A DNA stretch of 9,199 nucleotides from a virus (lineage: Duplodnaviria > Heunggongvirae > Uroviricota > Caudoviricetes): the IMG/VR virus record IMGVR_UViG_2602041549_000006, positions 1 through 9,199 of that record; one strand, given 5' to 3'. Made by a program: the position numbers and the translations under genes. Of the stretch, positions 1 to 8,701 are shown piece after piece. Numbering within the stretch: the first letter of the stretch is position 1; each line of letters begins with the position of its first letter. The notes under the pieces are model-generated. The model saw only the letters and a list, made by a program, of their open reading frames with translations. It was not told where the DNA came from and did not search any database.

Positions 1-107
1 GATTCAGGGGGCCAGTCTAGAACATGATTCGCTTATCCCAGTAGTCATTACACAGGCGATACTCTTCCGTTTTCTCACCTGACTTCATCTGGTCGAAATA
101 TTCACCG

Positions 108-410
108 TTAACTGCCAGTTGAAGGTTGGCCACGACCTTCCTCCTTTGGCTTGTGAATTTGTATCGTCATGCCGCTTTGAGTGGTGACTACAATGACAGA
201 ACCAGGCTGAAGGCTGTTAAGATTGAATGCTTCGTAAAACGAATCCAATGCCAGTGCTTTTTTATTCTTTCGGTTCCACCAACGCCATCCCTTGCTACAG
301 GCTACATCGACAATCCACTGTACACTCCTGTAAGCCATATAAAACCAGATGAGCAAAACCTGAAGGAATGCTATCCAGTCAATAATCGTATATTTCGCGA
401 AGGAGTCCAT
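108..410 (-). CDS. Small hypothetical protein (about 100 aa) with one strongly hydrophobic N-terminal segment (IIDWIAFLQVLLIWFYMAY); probable small membrane protein
   Basis: ORF 108..413 in the track begins with GTG at 413; the ATG at 410-408 is preceded by a strong SD (AGGAGGTGA) and overlaps the upstream stop as TGATG. No recognisable domain. Confidence 0.45.
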   Translation of the reverse strand: MDSFAKYTIIDWIAFLQVLLIWFYMAYRSVQWIVDVACSKGWRWWNRKNKKALALDSFYEAFNLNSLQPGSVIVVTTQSGMTIQIHKPKEEGRGQPSTGS

Positions 411-919
411 CACTTCACCTCCTGCTGCGGTGCTGCTGGCATTTCACGCCAGTGCGTAACTGAGTGCGGATCCGGATATTCGGTGCCATCATCCCAGCGA
501 TTGCCATTCCACATTGCAGACCACATCTCACCGTCTTCATACATGACCATTACCGGAATTAACTTATCCGGCATTCGCTCACTACAGCTTATCCAACCAT
601 CCGGAGTTGCCGGAGAATTGCCATTTACCAAGTCAGCTCGAACATATAGCGTGTCATCATGGTGCTGATTGTGGCTGCACCACGTTAATTCGCTTAACTC
701 GCCATCTTCTGGCCATACTCCAGCCGTTTGCAGCCAGATATGGGCTGGCGCATCTTGGCAAGGTGTATTAACTGGCAACTTGTAAGTTTGGCTTACAGGT
801 TCTGCTCCCAGTGATGCCAGTGCAATCCGTGCCACTTCCATTTGTTCGCCACGGGTAAGCCCGTTATCAAGCGGATTTTTAATGGATAATTCAATACGTT
901 CTTTGGTAATAGTGGTCAT
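410..919 (-). CDS. Phage accessory protein, DUF551-like C-terminal region (169 aa)
   Basis: ATG at 919-917 with AAGGA upstream. The C-terminal stretch GWISCSERMPD...THWREMPAAP resembles the DUF551 pattern common in enterobacterial prophage early-left regions (recalled from memory). Stop overlaps the next start. Confidence 0.55.
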   Translation of the reverse strand: MTTITKERIELSIKNPLDNGLTRGEQMEVARIALASLGAEPVSQTYKLPVNTPCQDAPAHIWLQTAGVWPEDGELSELTWCSHNQHHDDTLYVRADLVNGNSPATPDGWISCSERMPDKLIPVMVMYEDGEMWSAMWNGNRWDDGTEYPDPHSVTHWREMPAAPQQEVK

Positions 920-1431
920 GCCGCGTTTCCTTCTTTCTTATTAACAATTACACCGTCATATATTTCATTAAGGTGCCCTCTCAACTCCATACGCCTTAAT
1001 GCAAATAACATGTAATCGCATTCAACCTGCTTATTTCCAGTAAATGGCTTATCGTCAGGATTACCCCAACAGCAATTACCCTTGGGCCACCCATGTACTT
1101 TCCGTACTCTTCCGTTAACAACGTGAAGTAATCCCCAGCCGGGAGGTAAATCCTCAACTGAAATAATTCCCGGCTCACTAATAAAGAATCGCCAGTCGCC
1201 CATTCCAAGAGATGGATTTTTACGAAAACGCTTTTTTCTATCTGCCAACAAGTCAGCACGAGAACACTTCGCCTCTATCAGGCATGATGCTGAATTTCTG
1301 AATCCCATAGCATCTGGCTGTTCTCCGGTACTGGTTACAGCTATAAAGCGGTCATGAAAACAAACCTTGAACCCATTGCGCTTAAGGAACTTATACGCAA
1401 TCTGACAGAGTTCGCGGTGTGTTAACGCCAT
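916..1431 (-). CDS. Hypothetical protein (171 aa) with a PD-x12-ExK arrangement (PDAMGF ... LIEAK); possible PD-(D/E)XK-fold nuclease
   Basis: Track ORF 916..1767 overlaps the upstream gene; the internal ATG at 1431-1429 has an AAGGAG SD and sits 1 nt after the upstream TGA stop. The motif was read directly from the translation; the fold assignment is inference. Confidence 0.5.
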   Translation of the reverse strand: MALTHRELCQIAYKFLKRNGFKVCFHDRFIAVTSTGEQPDAMGFRNSASCLIEAKCSRADLLADRKKRFRKNPSLGMGDWRFFISEPGIISVEDLPPGWGLLHVVNGRVRKVHGWPKGNCCWGNPDDKPFTGNKQVECDYMLFALRRMELRGHLNEIYDGVIVNKKEGNAA

Positions 1432-1432
1432 A

Positions 1433-2053
1433 TCACTCTCCTTTGATGCGAATGCCAGCTGCGCTTGCTGATTCTTCATATGCGCGTTTAGCAGCGTTAA
1501 GGATTGCTGCCAGTGGCGTATAGCCGCCATCCATTCGGATTGTGTTGTGGATGCCAGCCATTGTGTCGCGCAATTTGCTGTGGCTAGCAGACAGTTCTGC
1601 AATGCGCTTCTCTGCGGCTTCCAGCTTCTCGCGCATATCGTCAACGTACTCGACCAGAGATCCGCCAGCAGGAATTTCGCATTCCTCGACCAGTTGGAAG
1701 TAGATATCAGCTGCGGCCCGTGTGTTGCTATGCCTAGCGTCGCCCATCTCACCTTCACGAAGAGCATCGCGTTCGGCGGTAAGATTGGCTATTTTGCTGT
1801 CTTTGCCTTCCAGCTCAACGCGCAGCCTCCCTACCGTTAGCGCAATATCCTCGTTCTCCTGATCGCGGCTTTTGATGTATTGCAGGTTTCTTTCCCGTTC
1901 ATCCAACAATGCCAGCGCGATATCTGGCGAAAAGTGCTTCATAAAATCGTTAAGCGCATTAATTCGCTGATCGAAAGGCATTACAGGTGCTTCACCAGCA
2001 ATTTTTGTTTTTTCAGCGATTTCACGAAGCTTTTGATAATCAATCTTGCTCAT
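1433..2053 (-). CDS. Ead/Ea22-like phage protein (206 aa) with a coiled-coil segment
   Basis: The N-terminus MSKIDYQKLREIAEK matches the typical start of Ead/Ea22-like prophage proteins (recalled). AAGGAG SD present; ATGA overlap with the upstream gene's stop. Confidence 0.6.
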   Translation of the reverse strand: MSKIDYQKLREIAEKTKIAGEAPVMPFDQRINALNDFMKHFSPDIALALLDERERNLQYIKSRDQENEDIALTVGRLRVELEGKDSKIANLTAERDALREGEMGDARHSNTRAAADIYFQLVEECEIPAGGSLVEYVDDMREKLEAAEKRIAELSASHSKLRDTMAGIHNTIRMDGGYTPLAAILNAAKRAYEESASAAGIRIKGE

Positions 2054-2889
2054 TGGATGACTCCTTTACGAAGCTGTTCGGCGATATCTTCGAGAACGCC
2101 ATCAGAGAATGAACGGTCAAAATCGCCTTCCGGCGCATTAGCCATAAACTCAGTAGAGGTAAGAATCATCCGGGCAATATCCGCGGCGTTCTTCGCAGTA
2201 TCATCAATAAAACCAGCTTCCCAGGCAGCCAGCATTCTGTTCGCCACAAAGTAAGCGCCCTCCTTGCGTGCTTCAGTCTTCACTTCAGCCAGGAAAGCAT
2301 CGGTGGCTGGGGTGTCTGATTGCAGAGACTTTGCGCGATAGTCATTCCACCCTCTTGCATACATGGGATTAACTTGCACTCCATCTTTTACGCAATATGC
2401 CTGCCCTCCACGGTTGATAACCTTGATTTCGTCCATAGCGCCAGACTTCATCCCCGCATTCTCCGCTGCCAGCTCCGCGCACTTGGCCTCAAGAGCGGCA
2501 ACCACTTCCTGATGGTCTTTGTACTTAACGTATGAGCCGGAGATGTCATCACCTTCGGTGTTTAGCCATGCGTCATTGCAATTCACTGCGTAGGTTCTGA
2601 TGCTCTCCCGCCTATGACAGACGCCAGGCCAGTCAATAAAGTATCCGCATTCCTTCTCAGATTGCTTAAGCGATGTATTTTCAGCAGCCATCTTCGCGCA
2701 TTTAGCCTCAAGGTTATCAATCGTGATTCCAGCAGAACGACACTCCCGCAACGCCGTTTCCAGTTTTGATTCAAGTTCACCGAACTTACGGACAAGATAT
2801 TCAGCGTTTGTTTCGTTAACCTTTAAATCACTTGGGATGCATTTACCTTTCAGAAAACCATCCATCTCAATTAGTGACATTTGTTTCAT
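2050..2889 (-). CDS. Coiled-coil phage protein with an internal tandem duplication (Ea22-like region); start ambiguous
   Basis: Long minus-strand ORF. The track start at 2907 is GTG with no SD; the ATG at 2889 has GGAG upstream, so either could be real. The motif LEAKCAxxAAEN occurs twice in the protein and is visible as a DNA repeat (2476-2495 versus 2697-2715). Confidence 0.5.
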   Translation of the reverse strand: MKQMSLIEMDGFLKGKCIPSDLKVNETNAEYLVRKFGELESKLETALRECRSAGITIDNLEAKCAKMAAENTSLKQSEKECGYFIDWPGVCHRRESIRTYAVNCNDAWLNTEGDDISGSYVKYKDHQEVVAALEAKCAELAAENAGMKSGAMDEIKVINRGGQAYCVKDGVQVNPMYARGWNDYRAKSLQSDTPATDAFLAEVKTEARKEGAYFVANRMLAAWEAGFIDDTAKNAADIARMILTSTEFMANAPEGDFDRSFSDGVLEDIAEQLRKGVIQ

Positions 2890-2983
2890 TTCTTCCCACT
2901 CCGCCACATCGCATTCAGATATTTGTTGTCATTAACAGAACCGAAACTCTTTCTCTTAAGCAAGTCCTCTCATGGTAAATTCC

Positions 2984-3277
2984 TCAGTCATTACTGATAG
3001 CGCCATAACGTGAGCGGTAATTACGCAGGCGCGGGTCAATTTCAGGGAAGTGGGTATATGTGGCTTTGCGGAATGGTCGGATTGATGTCTGGTAAATTCG
3101 CTCGCGTTCTTCTTTCTCTGCAAGCCATATACAATGGCGAAATTCCTTTTCCTCTTTCGTTTCCTGCGGTATCGACATTATCAGGTTGTAGTTTTTCCTG
3201 AATTTATCCAGCACCTCCGATACGGAATTGCCGGAACATCGGCGCGCGTCATCCGCACCATACAGAGGCGCTGGCAT
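2984..3277 (-). CDS. Hypothetical small phage protein (97 aa)
   Basis: ATG at 3277-3275 preceded by an AGGAG SD; same orientation and tight spacing with neighbouring genes. No recognisable domain. Confidence 0.5.
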   Translation of the reverse strand: MPAPLYGADDARRCSGNSVSEVLDKFRKNYNLIMSIPQETKEEKEFRHCIWLAEKEERERIYQTSIRPFRKATYTHFPEIDPRLRNYRSRYGAISND

Positions 3278-3293
3278 GGTTTTCTCCTGTTGA

Positions 3294-3842
3294 TTATTTA
3301 GCTAACTTTTTCCAGATCGCTGAAACGTATTTGGCTTGGTGAATGGCATCATCAAGCGCGTTGTGGCGAGTTCCTTTGAATGGCATATCTCGCTTAGGGT
3401 CGAATCCTATTACCTTCCCAAGTTCGACGATTGTTCTTACGTCGCGGTCATTCCACCACTGCCACGGAACTGGCTGCCCTGTCAGCGAATAACTGTTTCG
3501 GAGAATAACGCAGTCAAATGATGCTCCATTCCCCCAAACCTGAACGAATTTGTGGTTAGCGTTCTTTATGATGAATTCAGATAACCATGAAAGAGCCGTT
3601 GAAAGCTCCTGAGTGTTGCTGGTTAGCGATTTTCTGGCTTCTTCACTCTGTTCCAGCCACCATAAAATCGTTGAAGCGTCAGGACGCGCTCGATATCGCA
3701 TTGATGACTCAAGCGAGATATTTACCGAGAACTCTTCTCCTGTTTCTCCGGTATTCGGGTCAAAGAATACCGCCCCAATAGAAATAACTGGCGCGTATGG
3801 CCCGTTGCCCATTGTTTCAAGGTCAACCATCAAGTGATTCAT
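3294..3842 (-). CDS. 3'-5' exonuclease, DEDD(h)/DnaQ-like fold (182 aa)
   Basis: N-terminal MVDLETMG (Exo I motif, D-x-E) and C-terminal HNALDDA (Exo III motif, H-x4-D) read from the translation. AAGGA SD upstream of the ATG at 3842. Confidence 0.7.
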   Translation of the reverse strand: MNHLMVDLETMGNGPYAPVISIGAVFFDPNTGETGEEFSVNISLESSMRYRARPDASTILWWLEQSEEARKSLTSNTQELSTALSWLSEFIIKNANHKFVQVWGNGASFDCVILRNSYSLTGQPVPWQWWNDRDVRTIVELGKVIGFDPKRDMPFKGTRHNALDDAIHQAKYVSAIWKKLAK

Positions 3843-3850
3843 GTAAGTCC

Positions 3851-4330
3851 TTAAATTGCGTGAATAGCGTGACGAGGGAAGGGGAGAGTTACTGGCTCCT
3901 CGTCTGGGTAGATAGGTTTGTTATGTTTGTGCCACTCGACATGACATGACTTGCAGAGCCACATCACATCGGTTGGTTTGCTGTAGTCGCAGTGGTGCGC
4001 CTGTGGTTTACATTCTGATCCGCAGCACTCACATTGTGGTGGTCGGATTAGCTTACCGTCGCGCAAAAAATTACCCACAATGATGTGGGCTTTTCTTTTC
4101 CATGGGTTGCTCTGAATGAACCGCTTTTTGGCTGCGTTACACCGTTCTCTTCCGCGTTCCGATGATTGATATTCTCTCCTTGCTGATACTCGATGTGGCA
4201 ATCCAGCGCGTTCTTTGTCGTATTCAGCCAGGCAAGCCCGGCAAGCGGCAGTTAATCCATCTCTGGATGCTCTTCTGATTTGAAAGTCCCTTTCTTCCTT
4301 ATGTTGATGGCATCTTGAGCAGATTTTCAT
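3851..4330 (-). CDS. HNH endonuclease (159 aa), zinc-binding, free-standing
   Basis: C-terminal QCECCG ... AHHCDYSKP ... WLCKSCHVEWH gives the HNH catalytic His pair plus Cys4-type metal ligands; additional CxxC pairs at the N-terminus. AGGAG SD upstream. Confidence 0.7.
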   Translation of the reverse strand: MKICSRCHQHKEERDFQIRRASRDGLTAACRACLAEYDKERAGLPHRVSARREYQSSERGRERCNAAKKRFIQSNPWKRKAHIIVGNFLRDGKLIRPPQCECCGSECKPQAHHCDYSKPTDVMWLCKSCHVEWHKHNKPIYPDEEPVTLPFPRHAIHAI

Positions 4331-4339
4331 ATTCAGCTC

Positions 4340-4813
4340 CTAGAACGGAATATCCGAATCGTCGAAGTTCATAGGTGGTTCGCTGTGATTCCCATGCTGC
4401 TGAGATTGCTGTCTTTGTTGCTGGCCGTTATTTCGCTGAGGTGAAGACTGTTCATTGCCTCCTTGCTTGCCACCAAGCATTTGCATGGTTCCACCAACGC
4501 CTACGATAACTTCGGTAGTGAACCGATCCTGTCCACTTTGATCCTGCCATTTTCTTGTCCGCAATTTGCCTTCAAGATAAACCTCTGAGCCTTTCCGCAG
4601 ATACTCGCTGGCAATTTCTGCCAGTTTCCCGCTCATTACCACACGGTGCCACTCCGTCTGCTCCTTTTGCTCTCCAGTTTGCTTATCACGCCATTGTTCT
4701 GACGTAGCAACTGTAAGGTTTGCAAATGCCGTTCCTGATGGTGAATATCTGATTTCTGGATCATGCCCAAGGCGACCAATAATGATCACCTTATTTACGC
4801 CTCTGCTTGCCAT
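4340..4813 (-). CDS. ssb: Single-stranded DNA-binding protein SSB (157 aa)
   Basis: OB-fold N-terminus ([17 protein letters not shown]...), Gly/Gln-rich linker and the canonical acidic tail DDSDIPF. Confidence 0.9.
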
Positions 4814-5521
4814 TTATGCCGCCTGTTTTAGCTCGTTAACTCTGATGTTCATTACCTGAACGCATTTAGCCTGCGCATCCTCATTGCCAGCCATTAATTG
4901 CCAGTCACGCTGATAACGCTCTATGAGTTTTTTCTTGTCAGTTTCTGTTGATGCATAATCGCTGAAGTCTTTCAGGATTTGTTCGCAGTCAACCGATGGA
5001 GATTTCTGGTTGGTATTTTCTGGTGATGGTTTGTTATCTGATGCTGGGATTGCCCATCCCGGCAGCGATGGAGGGAGCCAGTAAAATCCTGTTCCATCCT
5101 TCAGTTTTGCCCTGTGCCACCCCTGCTTTTTATCGAGAGATGTTTGTGCGAAACCTTCCTCAAGGTTATACAGATACCGACCGATTCCCCATTGAACGGC
5201 AGCACGCTTCATTGCACCGGAACGACCACCTTTGACGGCTTCTACCTGCGTGTTTTCAGCAGCATCCCATTTGGTTACCCATTCGGAATCAATCTTGATT
5301 GATATGCCGCATTCAACTCCGCCGTTGTTGGGAATATCGCGGTATTCATTGCGCCATCCTGCTTTGCCGCAAACATCGTCCAGGCGTTTCATGATTGCCC
5401 GGTTCGTGACATAAGCCAGCACCATAGCCCACACCTTGCCATCGCGTGTTTTACCGCTTTGCTGTATTCGCCATTCGATATCTTCAGGGCTGAATGGCTC
5501 ATCGAATTTGTTCAAATCCAT
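4814..5521 (-). CDS. Single-strand annealing recombinase, Rad52/Sak-like family (235 aa); functional analogue of lambda Bet / P22 Erf
   Basis: Motifs GWRNEY, GGVECGISI and AVQWGIGRYLY fit Rad52-family annealing proteins (recalled). Sits immediately upstream of ssb, with a GAGGTGA SD. Confidence 0.65.
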   Translation of the reverse strand: MDLNKFDEPFSPEDIEWRIQQSGKTRDGKVWAMVLAYVTNRAIMKRLDDVCGKAGWRNEYRDIPNNGGVECGISIKIDSEWVTKWDAAENTQVEAVKGGRSGAMKRAAVQWGIGRYLYNLEEGFAQTSLDKKQGWHRAKLKDGTGFYWLPPSLPGWAIPASDNKPSPENTNQKSPSVDCEQILKDFSDYASTETDKKKLIERYQRDWQLMAGNEDAQAKCVQVMNIRVNELKQAA

Positions 5522-5620
5522 AATTCACCTCAGAATGGACACGGCCCAAGAAAATAACGCTGATTTAATACTTCGACTCGGGACAAATTAAGGCATACCC
5601 GCATTCCTTCGCGGTCACCA

Positions 5621-5779
5621 TTATGGCGATACCAGAGAGCTTTCTGCGTGTACATGCGTCTCTGTAACTTGCTCTCCTTCACTGTGGTTGCAAGTGACAT
5701 GAATATCTCCTTCGTTACCGATTAATTCTTTCATCTGACGAATGAATTCTTCGTCTGACCATTTATCTGTAAAACTCAT
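5621..5779 (-). CDS. Small protein (52 aa) in the kil position, downstream of and translationally coupled to cIII; function unknown
   Basis: ATG at 5779-5777 overlaps the cIII stop as ATGA. Assignment is by position only; the longer track ORF 5621..5809 would overlap cIII by 34 nt. Confidence 0.35.
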   Translation of the reverse strand: MSFTDKWSDEEFIRQMKELIGNEGDIHVTCNHSEGEQVTETHVHAESSLVSP

Positions 5780-5946
5780 GGACGGCCTTGTTGTTTCAAA
5801 ATATCCCAAAGCTTTTCGAGCAAACTTTTCATTCTTGGTTGTTTAAAGTCTGCTCCGGTTAAAATGTTTTTTCGTGAATGCTGTACCGATAAAATCGGGT
5901 TGAAAGGGCGAACCGATGCCGCCCCTGCAATAGCGAACTGTTGCAT
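5776..5946 (-). CDS. cIII: CIII-like protein (56 aa); regulator that protects CII from FtsH
   Basis: Internal ATG at 5946-5944 with an AAGGAG SD. The protein MQQFAIAGAAS...LLEKLWDILKQQGRP resembles lambda CIII (MQYAIAGW...LIDILNQPGVP) in start, length and C-terminus. The longer track ORF would read through the terminator hairpin. Confidence 0.65.
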   Translation of the reverse strand: MQQFAIAGAASVRPFNPILSVQHSRKNILTGADFKQPRMKSLLEKLWDILKQQGRP

Positions 5947-6011
5947 AGGATGCTCCTTCTGTTTGATTGCATAACGAAAACGCCTCGAGTGAAGCGTTAT
6001 TGGTATGCATA

Positions 6012-6036
6012 TAAAAAAGCCCTCACACTGGAGGGC
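6012..6036 (-). terminator. Intrinsic terminator on the minus strand (tL1-like), downstream of the N plus orf156 unit
   Basis: The minus strand reads GCCCTC-cagtgt-GAGGGC followed by TTTTTTAT: a 6-bp GC stem, 6-nt loop and T6 tract. There is no T-tract on the plus-strand side. Confidence 0.6.
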
Positions 6037-6098
6037 AAAGAAGATTTCCAATAATCAGAACAAGTCGGCTCCTGTTTAGTTACGAGCGACATTGCTCC

Positions 6099-6126
6099 GT
6101 GTATTCACTCGTTGGAATGAATACAC
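6099..6126. repeat. Perfect 9-bp inverted repeat (GTGTATTCA-N10-TGAATACAC) just 3' of orf156
   Basis: Read directly from the sequence; no adjacent U-tract, so not a classical terminator. Confidence 0.5.
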
Positions 6127-6140
6127 AGTGCTTATTCGTA

Positions 6141-6611
6141 CTAATAAAACACCCAGTTTTCTGTTTCTTGGTTGTGTCCAAAGTTATATTCAATACCTGG
6201 TGTTGATGTATCAATATTCTTCATCCCATCAACAAGAGTTGATACAACAGCCAAATCTTGTTTGATTCTCATCAAATGGTATTTCTTCCGGCGCAATAAA
6301 CTTTCAATGGCAAGTTTCTTCGTCGGGAATGCAAAAGATCTTTCTGCATTTTTTGCTACTTTCTTAATTGCATATCTATTTCTCCTTTGTTTCCATTCCT
6401 GTAACCACTGATTTGGTGCTGGTTTAAAATTAACAATCCAATGCGCAGGAACCAACCATGCATAATGCTCTGTCTGATGAAAAGCTATATATTGAAGTGC
6501 GAATATTTTGATTCCATCTTCTTCAACTGTCGCTTGGAATCTCCAGAAAACAGGCATTCCATCATGTTCAGTTTCTGATTCAGGAAAAGGTACGCTCCAT
6601 GATTTTGTCAT
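6141..6611 (-). CDS. Hypothetical protein (156 aa), AT-rich moron in the ral/sieB position directly after N; function unknown
   Basis: ATG at 6611-6609 with SD GAGGTGA overlapping the N stop codon. The segment is visibly AT-rich compared with its flanks. No recognisable domain, no transmembrane segment. Confidence 0.6.
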   Translation of the reverse strand: MTKSWSVPFPESETEHDGMPVFWRFQATVEEDGIKIFALQYIAFHQTEHYAWLVPAHWIVNFKPAPNQWLQEWKQRRNRYAIKKVAKNAERSFAFPTKKLAIESLLRRKKYHLMRIKQDLAVVSTLVDGMKNIDTSTPGIEYNFGHNQETENWVFY

Positions 6612-6619
6612 ATATCACC

Positions 6620-6955
6620 TCAAATAAGTGGTTTGCTGCCTAATTTCATTTTCTGGCGACCAACACAAGTCACACCCATTTCACTGCGTGGCTTGCGGTA
6701 GTAAATACGATTCTGTTTACTCTCGACTTCATCTGCCTTCTTGCAGCGAAGGATTCCGAGTGATATTGCTTTTTCAGAAAGGCTTAAACGCTTTCTTGGG
6801 GCTTCCTGAACAGGTTCCTCACTGTCTGTGCCGAAGATAGAATCAATGATGTTGCAGATGGCATCACGCTCGATAGCCAGCTTTCTGCGCCGCTCATGAC
6901 GGCGAGTTTTGGCATTTCCTGCAAATGTTGATTTCCCGTACACGATTACCGTCAT
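6620..6955 (-). CDS. N: Antitermination protein N (112 aa) with a P22-type arginine-rich motif and a lambda-like C-terminus
   Basis: The N-terminus MTVIVYGKSTFAGNAKTRRHERRRKLAIER matches the P22 N ARM peptide (recalled); the C-terminus YYRKPRSEMGVTCVGRQKMKLGSKPLI parallels the lambda N C-terminus (WYSKPGERGITCSGRQKIKGKSIPLI). ATG at 6955 with AGGA upstream; the track ORF extends to 7039. Confidence 0.85.
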   Translation of the reverse strand: MTVIVYGKSTFAGNAKTRRHERRRKLAIERDAICNIIDSIFGTDSEEPVQEAPRKRLSLSEKAISLGILRCKKADEVESKQNRIYYRKPRSEMGVTCVGRQKMKLGSKPLI

Positions 6956-7074
6956 GATGTTTTCCTCATGTGAAATGGCTTTGGTGGTGATGCGCCAGAT
7001 GCTGATCTTCTGGTTGCTGTCGTTGCAGCTGCAATTCACATCACCGCCAAATCCATCTCGTTTGGTATCTGTTT

Positions 7075-7109
7075 GCGCTTTGTCAGCGCCCCATCGAAGT
7101 TAAAGAGCA
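7075..7109 (-). promoter_or_regulatory. nutL: boxA (TGCTCTTTA) and boxB hairpin (GCGCTGACAAAGCGC)
   Basis: On the minus strand: boxA-like TGCTCTTTA, a 12-nt spacer, then a 4-bp GCGC stem closing a loop that contains GACAA. This matches my recollection of P22 nutL boxB. It lies between the predicted PL and N. Confidence 0.7.
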
Positions 7110-7154
7110 TGCCAATCTGTTCCGTTTGGCTTCCAGCTTCCTGCTGATGGCTAA

Positions 7155-7183
7155 ATAGTACGATGTGTACTTTATTGAGTCAA
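7155..7183 (-). promoter_or_regulatory. PL candidate: -35 TTGACT (7178-7183), 17-bp spacer, -10 TACTAT (7155-7160), overlapped by operator-like palindromes
   Basis: Hexamers read on the minus strand. The 13-bp perfect palindrome TATTGAGTCAATA (7173-7185) overlaps the -35 and AGTAC-N5-GTACT (7157-7171) overlaps the -10/spacer. Confidence 0.5.
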
Positions 7184-7242
7184 TACAAAATGTTCTAAAT
7201 ATAATTAGTTTTTTATAACGCTTTGTATTTAATAGGTTTATA

Positions 7243-7278
7243 TTTTGGAAAAAGAAAACCCGACGCTAAGGTCGGGTT
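7243..7278 (-). terminator. Intrinsic terminator downstream of cI (weaker on the plus strand)
   Basis: 8-bp stem AACCCGAC/GTCGGGTT with a 6-nt loop; on the minus strand it is followed by TTCTTTTTCC, on the plus strand by ATTGTTGTGTATTTT. Confidence 0.6.
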
Positions 7279-7308
7279 ATTGTTGTGTATTTTAGAGTTG
7301 TGAGGCTG

Positions 7309-7968
7309 TTAACTAAATGTCTCTTCAGGCCACTGGCTGGCGATAACTTTCCCTACTACGGAACAGCTATCATTGCATGGAATCATTGGATATTGCGGGT
7401 TTAGTGGCTGTAGGAACACCTGACCGCTATCCCTGATCAGTTTCTTGAAGGTAAACTCATCACCTCCAAGTCTGGCTATGCAAAAATCACCGGGCTCAAT
7501 AGCCTGCTCAGGGTCAACAAGAATTAACATCCCGTCAGGAAAGCTTGGCTTGGATCCTGTTGGCGCGGTCATGGAATTACCTTCAACCTCAAGCCAGAAT
7601 GCAGAATCACTGGCTTTTTTGGTTGTGCTTACCCATCTCTCCGCATCACCTTTGGTAAAGGTTCTAAGCTCAGGCGAGAACATCCCGGCCTGAACATGAG
7701 AAAAAACAGGGTACTCATATTGTTTTTTAACGGGGGCAGATGAGTATTCGCCAACAGGTGAAAATGTACCGTCGTGGTTGAATGAGACGTTATCAATACC
7801 AAGGTATTTAAACACCACACCAATCTCGTCAAGAGATGGATGACGAGATCCGCGCAACCAGTGACCAATTCCACCCTGCGTCATACCAAGCTCTTCAGCT
7901 AACTTCTCTTGAGTTATGCCGAGTTCTTTCATTCTGGATCTAGCCAGTTCATACCATTTCATTTTCAT
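7309..7968 (-). CDS. cI: CI-type prophage repressor (219 aa): non-lambda N-terminal HTH domain fused to a lambda-cI-like LexA/S24 C-terminal domain
   Basis: The C-terminal about 130 aa ([19 protein letters not shown] ... [12 protein letters not shown]) is near-identical to lambda cI as I recall it, including the Ala-Gly cleavage site and the Ser and Lys of the catalytic dyad; the N-terminal about 85 aa is different. ATG at 7968-7966 with an AAGGA SD; the track ORF extends to 8043. Confidence 0.9.
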
Positions 7969-8024
7969 ATCCTTATTATTACGCTCTGTACTAAAACCAT
8001 CCATGCACAAGATGTATTTTTTGT

Positions 8025-8053
8025 TTGCATTCCAAAAGTACATATCGTATTAT
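8025..8053 (+). promoter_or_regulatory. PR candidate: -35 TTGCAT (8025-8030), 17 bp, -10 TATTAT (8048-8053), inside the OR region 7969-8079
   Basis: Best sigma70-like match on the plus strand upstream of cro; SD GGAGGG at 8071-8076. Operator half-sites could not be defined confidently; AGTACATATCGTATT (8036-8050) and ATTACGCTCTGTACT (7979-7993) resemble the OL element. Confidence 0.4.
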
Positions 8054-8079
8054 TGTTTCATGATTACTATGGAGGGCAT

Positions 8080-8295
8080 ATGAGCAACCTACGAAAATAT
8101 CGAGAGTCACTGAATATCTCTCAAACAACACTTGCTAAGGCGGTTGGATGCACACAGGGAGCTATCGGACATTGGGAATCTGGTCGTCGCTTCCCAGACC
8201 TTAAAACATGCCGTGCTCTTGTTGCGTGCCTAAACAAGTTAGGCGCAAAAGTCAGTCTTGATGACGTGTTCCCACCGGAACACAAAGCCGCTTAA
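8080..8295 (+). CDS. cro: Cro-like HTH repressor (71 aa)
   Basis: Divergent from cI across a 111-bp operator region; ATG at 8080 with a GGAGGG SD; HTH segment QTTLAKAVGCTQGAIGHWESG. The track ORF 7909..8295 is an upstream extension without an SD. Confidence 0.8.
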   Translation: MSNLRKYRESLNISQTTLAKAVGCTQGAIGHWESGRRFPDLKTCRALVACLNKLGAKVSLDDVFPPEHKAA

Positions 8296-8305
8296 TAAGC
8301 GGATC

Positions 8306-8340
8306 CGCTCTTTATCAATCTGCACCGCCGACAACGCGGT
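8306..8340 (+). promoter_or_regulatory. nutR: boxA (CGCTCTTTA, 8306-8314) and boxB hairpin (ACCGC-cGACAAc-GCGGT, 8324-8340)
   Basis: Consensus boxA followed 9 nt later by a 5-bp stem whose loop contains GACAA, the same loop core as the nutL boxB, as expected for a P22-type N. Confidence 0.7.
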
Positions 8341-8352
8341 AACTAATTAAGC

Positions 8353-8385
8353 ACTCATCGAAAGATGAGTATTAGTGATTATTTA
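8353..8385 (+). terminator. tR1-position hairpin (ACTCATC-GAAA-GATGAGT) followed by a weakly T-rich tract
   Basis: 7-bp stem with a GAAA tetraloop between nutR and cII; the downstream tract ATTAGTGATTATTTA is only moderately U-rich, so this may be a weak or N-suppressible terminator. Confidence 0.35.
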
Positions 8386-8394
8386 CCTATGGAA

Positions 8395-8437
8395 ATAGTA
8401 AGAAATGGAACAAACAAGTTACAGCAAACTATCACAG
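8395..8437 (-). promoter_or_regulatory. PRE-like CII-dependent promoter: TTGC-N6-TTGT box (8424-8437) and -10 TACTAT (8395-8400)
   Basis: On the minus strand TTGCtgtaacTTGT lies at codons 7-11 of cII, analogous to the lambda TTGC-N6-TTGC site in early cII codons; a 17-bp spacer then TACTAT. Confidence 0.4.
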
Positions 8438-8701
8438 CGCGATGTTGATCGCGCAGAAACAGATTTACTTATCAACCTGTCAACGCTTACACAGCGCGGT
8501 CTGGCAAAGATGATTGGCTGTCATGAATCGAAGATAAGCAGAACGGACTGGAGATTTATTGCTTCGGTCTTGTGTGCTTTCGGAATGGCATCAGACATCA
8601 GTCCGATTAGCAGGGCTTTTAAGTATGCGCTTGATGGACTCACCAATAAAAAACGCCCGGCGGCAACCGAGCGTTCTTATCAAATACAAATGGAATTTTA
8701 A
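8405..8701 (+). CDS. cII: CII transcriptional activator (98 aa)
   Basis: The C-terminus LTNKKRPAATERSYQIQMEF is nearly identical to lambda CII (ILTNKKRPAATERSEQIQMEF, recalled); length and position after cro and nutR fit. Confidence 0.9.
   Translation: MEQTSYSKLSQRDVDRAETDLLINLSTLTQRGLAKMIGCHESKISRTDWRFIASVLCAFGMASDISPISRAFKYALDGLTNKKRPAATERSYQIQMEF

What the first reader, a model, noticed from the sequence alone, without database searches (positions are those of the whole stretch)
6620..7109. Mosaic N antiterminator: P22-type RNA-binding motif and nut sites combined with a lambda-like C-terminus
The N-terminal arginine-rich motif (GNAKTRRHERRRKLAIER) is P22-type, and both nutL (GCGCTGACAAAGCGC, minus strand 7075-7089) and nutR (ACCGCcGACAAcGCGGT, 8324-8340) carry GACAA loops, consistent with P22-type boxB recognition. 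The C-terminal about 30 aa resembles lambda N. RNA-recognition specificity and the host-interaction domain therefore seem to have different ancestries, and the two nut sites co-vary with the ARM.
Basis: partly seen in the sequence, partly recalled or inferred. Interest (0 to 1): 0.45.

Follow-up and report, generated by a model that had tools for sequence, protein, structure and literature searches.

The report
Mosaic phage N antiterminator gene
This is an ordinary lambdoid-prophage N antitermination gene: its RNA-binding head and both nut sites are of the phage P22 type and its RNA-polymerase-binding tail is of the lambda/phage 21 type, a module combination already common in sequenced E. coli and Shiga-toxin phages.

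Summary
Window 6955..6620 (-) encodes a 111-aa N protein. Residues 13-30 (GNAKTRRHERRRKLAIER) are identical to the arginine-rich motif (ARM) of P22 gp24. nutL boxB (7075-7089, -) and nutR boxB (8324-8340, +) are base-for-base the P22 boxB-left and boxB-right sequences, each preceded by a boxA.

Residues 1-75 align with gp24 (69% identity, E 6e-35). The last 40 residues give no alignment with gp24. They match lambda N residues 74-107 (19/35 identical, E 1e-10). At the DNA level, 6775-6609 is 95-96% identical to the 3' ends of the phage 21 and CUS-3 N genes.

A relative, Lambda_2G7a, shares the 5' part at 95% down to 6728 and then switches to a P22-type tail. The exchange points therefore flank a shared linker (aa 61-76, KAISLGxLRCKK).

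Across 126 distinct loci, the P22 ARM always travels with GACAA boxB sites, whichever of three tail types it carries.

The same architecture at 92-97% identity occurs in more than 80 Stx phages and in IMG/VR contigs. Mosaic gp24 was already described for phage L. The closest tail relative is phage 21/CUS-3, not lambda.

The parts
6620..6955 (-). N antitermination gene, 111 aa plus stop. It is the first gene of the leftward early operon.
   Evidence: ORF and translation. Pfam PF25694 N_peptide, 91 bits, residues 1-76. PHROG 271 'anti-termination protein N-like', E 2.9e-45. 92-97% identical proteins in Stx phages and IMG/VR contigs.
6866..6919 (-). Codons 13-30: the arginine-rich motif GNAKTRRHERRRKLAIER (RNA-binding, boxB specificity).
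   Evidence: Identical to P22 gp24 residues 13-30. DNA 80-93% identical to P22 over this part.
6728..6775 (-). Codons 61-76 (EKAISLGILRCKKADE): a linker shared at over 90% DNA identity with both partner classes. The exchange points lie at its two edges.
   Evidence: High identity to Lambda_2G7a ends at 6728, and high identity to phage 21/CUS-3 starts at 6775.
6623..6727 (-). Codons 77-111: the lambda/phage 21-type C-terminal module (VESKQNRIYYRKPRSEMGVTCVGRQKMKLGSKPLI). It is inferred to be the segment that binds RNA polymerase.
   Evidence: 54% identity to lambda N 74-107, E 1e-10. 91% identity to the phage 21 N tail. No alignment with P22 gp24. The role of the lambda N C-terminus inside RNAP is taken from review PMC8632103.
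7101..7109 (-). boxA of nutL (TGCTCTTTA).
   Evidence: Pattern search, with the same position in P22, ENT47670 and ST64T; sequence.
7075..7089 (-). boxB of nutL (GCGCUGACAAAGCGC): 5-bp stem, GACAA pentaloop.
   Evidence: Identical to P22 nutL boxB. Fold -7.1 kcal/mol. Present in every P22-ARM locus with enough flank.
7155..7183 (-). Candidate pL promoter (TTGACT, 17 nt, TACTAT), overlapped by an operator-like site.
   Evidence: Promoter scan. The 20-nt inverted repeat 7154-7173 / 8035-8054 links it to the pR region. Consensus match only.
7257..7278 (-). Intrinsic terminator after the repressor gene, just upstream of pL.
   Evidence: Terminator scan: 8-bp stem followed by a T run. 7251-7286 is 89% identical to the lambda sequence that spans the 3' end of rexB and the bases after it (locus 3024-3059; rexB ends at 3033).
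7309..7977 (-). CI-type repressor (HTH_3 plus Peptidase_S24).
   Evidence: Pfam. 71% identity to lambda CI overall; identity is low in the N-terminal DNA-binding part and nearly complete in the C-terminal part.
8024..8053 (+). Candidate pR promoter.
   Evidence: Promoter scan and operator-like inverted repeat. Consensus match only.
8080..8295 (+). cro-like HTH gene, transcribed ahead of nutR.
   Evidence: Pfam HTH_3.
8306..8314 (+). boxA of nutR (CGCTCTTTA).
8324..8340 (+). boxB of nutR (ACCGCCGACAACGCGGU): 5-bp stem, GACAA closed by a C.C mismatch.
   Evidence: Identical to P22 nutR boxB. Fold. Found with the P22 ARM in 60 of 62 loci with enough flank.
8405..8701 (+). cII gene, downstream of nutR. 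Its expression is expected to depend on N-modified transcription.
   Evidence: Pfam Phage_CII, E 3.8e-34.
6019..6036 (-). Terminator-like hairpin in the leftward operon, a candidate target of N antitermination.
   Evidence: Terminator scan. Not otherwise tested.

Best explanation
This is the early antitermination module of a lambdoid (pro)phage. Transcripts from pL and pR carry nutL and nutR (boxA plus boxB). The N protein binds the GACAA-loop boxB hairpins through its P22-type arginine-rich motif. With the host Nus factors assembled on boxA, it is then held on the elongating RNA polymerase. Its lambda/phage 21-type C-terminal segment inserts into the polymerase and makes it read through downstream terminators. 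The gene is an intragenic mosaic of three pieces. The first is a 5' part (leader, nutL, codons 1-60) of the P22 specificity class. The second is a conserved linker (codons 61-76). The third is a 3' part (codons 77-111) of the class shared by lambda, phage 21 and CUS-3. Shown here: the sequence identities, the breakpoints, and the strict ARM/boxB linkage with free assortment of the tail. Inferred from lambda and P22 biochemistry: RNA binding, Nus dependence, and the RNAP-binding role of the tail.
For: The ARM is identical to P22 gp24, and both boxB sequences are identical to P22 nutL and nutR. Residues 1-75 are 69% identical to gp24, E 6e-35. The tail matches lambda N 74-107 with E 1e-10 and is 91% identical to the phage 21 tail. 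In 45-nt identity windows, Lambda_2G7a stays at 91-100% from about 7123 to 6748 and then falls to 69% and below 50%. Phage 21 and CUS-3 are at or below 64% over codons 1-45, rise through the linker, and reach 91-100% from 6748 to 6628 (blastn segments). In 126 distinct loci, all P22-ARM loci with enough flank carry the P22 boxB-L, and 60 of 62 carry boxB-R, whether the tail is lambda/21 type (26 loci), P22 type (29) or L/ST64T type (9). In contrast, 57 loci with the same lambda/21 tail but a CUS-3 ARM carry a different boxB (CCCGCCGAAATGCGGG). The gene order pL-nutL-N and pR-cro-nutR-cII is canonical. Literature: phage L and P22 gp24 share the N-terminal 75 aa, have unrelated C-termini, and are functionally interchangeable (PMC8022706). 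The lambda N C-terminus enters the RNAP catalytic cavity and RNA exit channel (PMC8632103).
Against: No functional data exist for this allele. The promoters and terminators are consensus matches only. The region equivalent to the NusA-binding segment of lambda N shows no sequence similarity, so Nus-factor contacts are assumed. The direction and age of the exchanges cannot be read from these data. ENT47670 N (P22 ARM plus lambda-type tail) is diverged across the whole gene (72% DNA identity overall, ranging from 47% to 96% in 45-nt windows). That pattern suggests the combination itself may be old rather than a recent hybrid.
Confidence: 0.9

Rival explanations
1. The protein is simply an orthologue of P22 gp24 along its whole length, and the C-terminal resemblance to lambda N is chance.
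For: Residues 1-75 are clearly gp24-like, and the Pfam P22-family model is the top hit.
Against: The Pfam match stops at model position 76 of 100, whereas P22 gp24 and Lambda_2G7a N match positions 1-100. The last 40 aa have no alignment with gp24 at E<=100. They align with lambda N at E 1e-10 and are 91% identical to phage 21 N.
Confidence: 0.01
2. The arrangement is not a hybrid. The lambda-type tail is ancestral to all N proteins, and 'P22 ARM plus lambda-type tail' is an old, vertically inherited lineage. P22 and phage L are the lineages that replaced their tails.
For: The lambda, phage 21, CUS-3 and P22-ARM proteins all share this tail. Cronobacter ENT47670, Yokenella and many Salmonella proteins have the same architecture at only 60-69% identity over the full length, and ENT47670 DNA aligns across the whole gene at 72%. 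Among the 120 best protein clusters, the lambda/21-type tail is the most frequent partner of the P22 ARM.
Against: In this window the 3' 167 nt are 95-96% identical to phage 21 and CUS-3, whose 5' halves cannot be aligned with it. The 5' 424 nt are 95% identical to a gene with a P22-type tail. Such step changes require recent exchange among E. coli phages. The two views are compatible: an old architecture whose modules were recently reshuffled.
Confidence: 0.3
3. The different tail is an artefact of a frameshift or sequencing error in a P22-type 3' end.
For: None beyond the abrupt change of similarity.
Against: tblastn finds no P22-type tail in any frame of the window and no lambda-type tail in any frame of the P22 or Lambda_2G7a loci. 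The same tail is found intact in dozens of independent records.
Confidence: 0.01

Closest known systems
N of Stx-converting phages such as SH2026Stx1 (NC_049919), the Stx2a phages LC616031-LC616076, and IMG/VR contigs (for example L010)
   Same: Same architecture end to end at 92-97% protein identity and 95-96% DNA identity including the nutL leader, with the same nutL and nutR boxB.
   Different: A few substitutions and a 2-aa length difference in the linker (KKSKSEEVERKQ versus KKADEVESKQ). A different immunity region in some of them.
Phage P22 gp24 with P22 nutL/nutR
   Same: Identical ARM, identical boxB-L and boxB-R, the same boxA, and 69% identity over residues 1-75.
   Different: The P22 tail (GSVLLPGVALYAAGHRKSKQITAR) is unrelated to the tail here. 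DNA identity beyond codon 42 is below 50%.
Phage 21 N and CUS-3 N
   Same: Codons 61-111 plus 11 nt past the stop are 95-96% identical in DNA.
   Different: Different ARMs (TAKSRYKARRAE and NARNRRRARRQ) and different boxB hairpins.
Lambda N (PDB 6GOV chain N)
   Same: The same three-part logic of N-terminal ARM, middle region and C-terminal RNAP-binding segment. The tail is 54% identical over 35 aa, and the ARM core TRRxERR is shared.
   Different: Only 31.5% identity overall. The boxB loop is GAAGA/GAAAA rather than GACAA. The window protein does not match the lambda-specific Pfam N36 model.
Phage L / ST64T gp24 (a published example of mosaic gp24)
   Same: P22-type N-terminal 75 aa and P22 boxB sites joined to a non-P22 tail. 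Reported to be functionally interchangeable with P22 gp24 (PMC8022706).
   Different: A third tail type (…NRIYYRDVNPLGNKIHAVQKQRGKSIPAYYD) that shares only the NRIYYR motif with the window tail.

Membership tests
Lambdoid N/nut processive antitermination system | A small basic protein with an N-terminal arginine-rich RNA-binding motif. | tested here: met
   Residues 13-30 are identical to the P22 gp24 ARM. Pfam PF25694 scores 91 bits against a cut-off of 27.9.
Lambdoid N/nut processive antitermination system | nut sites (boxA followed by a boxB hairpin) in both the pL and pR transcripts, with nutL upstream of N and nutR between cro and cII. | tested here: met
   boxA/boxB at 7109-7075 (-) and 8306-8340 (+). 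Gene order.
Lambdoid N/nut processive antitermination system | A C-terminal segment homologous to the RNAP-binding region of lambda N (residues about 73-107). | tested here: met
   19/35 identical to lambda N 74-107, E 1e-10.
Lambdoid N/nut processive antitermination system | A NusA-binding middle segment and dependence on NusA/B/E/G. | not testable with these tools
   The middle region has no similarity to lambda N 34-47. Testing needs genetics or binding assays.
Lambdoid N/nut processive antitermination system | N-dependent read-through of downstream terminators. | not testable with these tools
   There is only a terminator-like hairpin at 6036-6019 (-). A reporter assay is needed.
P22 gp24 family (Pfam PF25694 N_peptide), full length | A match to the whole 100-position model, including the P22-type C-terminus. 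| tested here: not met
   The match covers model positions 1-76 only, whereas P22 and Lambda_2G7a match 1-100. The tail has no alignment with gp24.
P22 nut specificity class | A boxB with a GACAA pentaloop paired with the P22 ARM. | tested here: met
   Both boxB sequences are identical to those of P22. The linkage holds in all P22-ARM loci examined.
Lambda N N-terminal peptide (Pfam PF11438 N36) | A match to the lambda-specific ARM/NusA-binding 36-mer. | tested here: not met
   No N36 hit for the window protein at E<=1. Lambda N hits it at 92 bits.

The most novel reading that the evidence does not exclude
The linker at codons 61-76 (KAISLGxLRCKK) may be a dedicated intragenic recombination joint. 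It would let at least three C-terminal modules (lambda/21, P22, L/ST64T), which are unrelated or barely related in sequence, assort freely with ARM/nut specificity modules. The alternative tails might then engage RNA polymerase in mechanistically different ways or with different host-factor requirements. In that case this window's tail choice would be functionally consequential rather than neutral.
Probability: 0.15. Interest if true: 0.4.

Novelty: already known. Interest (0 to 1): 0.15.

Why it matters
It matters little beyond annotation. The result is a clean worked example of two established points. First, in N proteins the RNA specificity (ARM plus boxB) and the polymerase-engaging tail are separable modules. 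Second, lambdoid phages exchange parts of genes as well as whole genes. In practice, this prophage should be cross-activatable by P22-specificity N proteins at its nut sites, but not by phage 21, CUS-3 or lambda N, even though it shares their tail. Pfam PF25694 describes only the first 76 residues of proteins of this class.

Tried and rejected
- NCBIfam gave no hit for this N, nor for P22, lambda or phage 21 N.
- The Rfam gathering scan of the whole window found nothing; no family matched the nut sites.
- A PDB sequence search with the 30-aa ARM peptide found nothing. The library holds only chains of 20 residues or more, and such a short query has little power.
I used two viral-contig scans instead.
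- The Cocozaki et al. 2008 paper on P22 boxB requirements (PMC2446750) is not held. The P22 boxB sequences were therefore taken directly from the P22 genome record.
- The first automatic hairpin picker sometimes chose a longer downstream hairpin in place of boxB (lambda, ST64T). I replaced it with explicit boxB string matching.
- The frameshift explanation was tested and rejected.
- E. coli complete genomes hold no identical copy of 6500-7300; the best match is 97%. The source organism was not pursued further.
- Structure prediction was not attempted, because lambda N is described as intrinsically unstructured (PMC8632103).

Full report
**1. What is in the sequence**

The minus strand of 6955..6620 encodes a 111-aa protein:

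MTVIVYGKSTFAGNAKTRRHERRRKLAIERDAICNIIDSIFGTDSEEPVQEAPRKRLSLSEKAISLGILRCKKADEVESKQNRIYYRKPRSEMGVTCVGRQKMKLGSKPLI

The ATG at 6955 is preceded by GAGGAAA. The 139-aa GTG-started ORF in the mechanical list is just an upstream extension of the same frame.

The N-sense leader carries boxA TGCTCTTTA (7109-7101). After an 11-nt spacer comes GCGCTGACAAAGCGC (7089-7075). On the plus strand, 10 nt after the cro-like gene, lies CGCTCTTTA (8306-8314). After a 9-nt spacer comes ACCGCCGACAACGCGGT (8324-8340).

The isolated boxB-L folds as a 5-bp stem with a GACAA loop (-7.1 kcal/mol, z = -3.2). boxB-R forms a 5-bp stem with GACAA closed by a C.C mismatch.

**2. Context**

The surrounding genes form a canonical lambdoid immunity and early region.

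| Feature | Coordinates | Evidence |
|---|---|---|
| CI-type repressor (HTH_3 + Peptidase_S24) | 7977-7309 (-) | |
| Terminator after the repressor | 7278-7257 (-) | |
| pL-like promoter | 7183-7155 (-) | |
| pR-like promoter | 8024-8053 (+) | |
| cro-like HTH gene | 8080-8295 (+) | |
| cII | 8405-8701 (+) | |

The two promoters are consensus matches only. A 20-nt inverted repeat (7154-7173 / 8035-8054) overlaps both and looks like operators.

Leftward of N lie several genes: an unknown 156-aa gene, a terminator-like hairpin (6036-6019), a Rad52/Erf-family annealase, SSB, an endonuclease-like gene, an Rv2179c-like exonuclease, and abc2.

**3. The protein compared with P22, lambda and others**

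I took N genes straight from the genome records of nine phages: P22, lambda, phage 21, CUS-3, ST64T, Cronobacter ENT47670, Salmonella vB_ST415_1NRH, Lambda_2G7a and an Stx2a phage.

- Against P22 gp24: residues 1-75 align at 69% identity (E 6e-35), and residues 1-41 differ at only two positions.
- Against P22 gp24, tail only: the last 40 residues give no alignment at E<=100.
- Against lambda N: the same 40 residues align with residues 74-107 at 19/35 identity, E 1e-10.
- Against the PDB: lambda N (6GOV chain N) is the only hit, E 3.7e-6.
- Pfam gives the same answer independently. PF25694 matches P22 gp24 and Lambda_2G7a N over model positions 1-100, but matches the window protein only over positions 1-76.
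- A frameshift origin is excluded. Neither tail type is encoded in any frame of the other class of locus.

**4. Where the joints are**

blastn and 45-nt sliding-window identities give this picture.

| Comparison | Region of the window | DNA identity |
|---|---|---|
| Lambda_2G7a (P22-type tail) | 7151 to 6728 (leader, nutL, codons 1-76) | 95%, then falls below 50% |
| Phage 21 and CUS-3 | codons 1-45 | at or below 64% (background level for phage 21) |
| Phage 21 and CUS-3 | 6775 to 6609 (codon 61 to 11 nt past the stop) | 95-96% |
| P22 | ARM and nutL boxB | 80-93% |
| P22 | beyond codon 42 | below 50% |

The gene is therefore a three-piece mosaic whose exchange points flank the shared linker, codons 61-76 (KAISLGILRCKKADE). 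The closest relative of the tail is phage 21/CUS-3, not lambda itself.

**5. Co-variation of the ARM with the nut sites**

I collected 126 distinct N loci: the nine reference phages, the window itself, and loci from two IMG/VR scans (one seeded with the N alignment, one with the tail only). I classified the ARM, the tail, and the boxB on each side. Counts exclude loci whose flank was too short to score.

| ARM type | Tail type | Loci | boxB found |
|---|---|---|---|
| P22 | lambda/21 | 26 | P22 boxB-L in 25 of 25 scorable; P22 boxB-R in 23 of 24 |
| P22 | P22 | 29 | P22 boxB-L in 29 of 29; P22 boxB-R in 27 of 28 |
| P22 | L/ST64T | 9 | P22 boxB-L and boxB-R in all 9 |
| P22 | other | 1 | P22 boxB-L and boxB-R |
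| CUS-3 | lambda/21 | 57 | CCCGCCGAAATGCGGG on both sides in 50, on one side in 6 |
| phage 21 | lambda/21 | 2 | phage 21 boxB on both sides |
| lambda | lambda/21 | 1 | lambda boxB on both sides |

Every P22-type ARM locus with enough flank carries GCGCTGACAAAG(C/T)GC upstream of N, and 60 of 62 carry CCGCCGACAACGCGG in the rightward operon.

**6. How common it is, and what is already known**

- Full-length relatives at 92-93% protein identity occur in more than 80 phage records. These are mostly Stx1- and Stx2-converting phages, some annotated as N.
- Relatives at 95-97% identity occur in IMG/VR contigs.
- Among the 120 best protein clusters with this ARM, the three tail types are all abundant (37 lambda/21, 33 L/ST64T and 24 P22 by the strictest patterns, plus variants). 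Further hybrids occur inside the tail.
- Architecturally identical proteins at 60-69% identity occur in Cronobacter, Yokenella and Salmonella. The combination is therefore probably old as well as recently reshuffled.
- The phage L genome paper states that L and P22 gp24 are 96% identical over the N-terminal 75 aa, with unrelated C-terminal 25-35 aa. It also reports identical boxB sites and functional interchangeability, with specificity residing in the N-terminal part (PMC8022706).
- A review notes that N proteins diverge most in their C-terminal regions. [quoted passage not shown]

**7. Mechanism**

The following is inferred from the lambda and P22 paradigms. Only the sequence relationships are shown here.

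- RNA polymerase starting at pL or pR transcribes boxA and boxB.
- N binds the GACAA boxB hairpin through residues 13-30.
- NusB/E assemble on boxA, and NusA and NusG assemble with N into the modifying complex.
- The lambda/21-type tail (residues about 77-111) penetrates RNAP and suppresses pausing and termination.
- This allows expression of the leftward recombination genes and the rightward cII and replication genes.

The Nus contacts of the middle region could not be tested.

**8. Verdict**

The tail is closest to phage 21/CUS-3. The lambda-type tail is the widespread form shared by N proteins with at least four ARM types. The architecture is common. The feature is real but ordinary and already known in kind, so interest is low.

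Noticed in passing
window 7309-7977 (-): The CI repressor is also an intragenic mosaic. From about residue 85 to the end it is almost identical to the lambda CI C-terminal (oligomerisation/autocleavage) domain. The N-terminal HTH DNA-binding domain has low identity to that of lambda, which suggests a different immunity specificity.
   Followed up: partly
window 7251-7286: The repressor gene is followed directly by a terminator. This stretch is 89% identical to the lambda sequence that spans the 3' end of rexB and the bases after it. No rexA or rexB genes are present here.
   Followed up: partly
window 6141-6611 (-): A 156-aa gene starts 9 nt after the N stop codon. It has no Pfam hit and matches PHROG 1636 (unknown function) end to end. 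It sits where lambda carries sieB and ral.
   Followed up: no
window 7154-7173 and 8035-8054: A 20-nt inverted repeat, 90% complementary, overlaps the -10 regions of the candidate pL and pR promoters. These are probably the OL1 and OR1 operators of this immunity type.
   Followed up: partly
window 8353-8370 (+): A 7-bp hairpin with a GAAA tetraloop (ACTCATC-GAAA-GATGAGT) lies 13 nt after nutR boxB and has no T run. The start of the same sequence is seen in Stx2_EH0505 and Lambda_2G7a but not in P22. Its role is unknown.
   Followed up: no
proteins P0015, P0024, P0053: Some P22-ARM N proteins carry hybrid tails: a lambda/21-type core (…EMGVTCxGRQK) joined to the ST64T-type end (QRGKSIPAYYD). 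Exchange therefore also occurs inside the C-terminal module.
   Followed up: no
window 6019-6036 (-): A terminator-like hairpin with a T run lies downstream of the 156-aa gene in the leftward operon. It is a candidate first terminator overridden by N.
   Followed up: no
window 1-6600: No single phage record covers more than 46% of the window at high identity. The best partial matches are several E. coli lambdoid or P22-like phages and one Klebsiella phage. No complete E. coli genome has an identical copy of 6500-7300 (best 97%). The early-left region has a P22-like recombination set: Erf/Rad52-family annealase, SSB and Abc2.
   Followed up: partly
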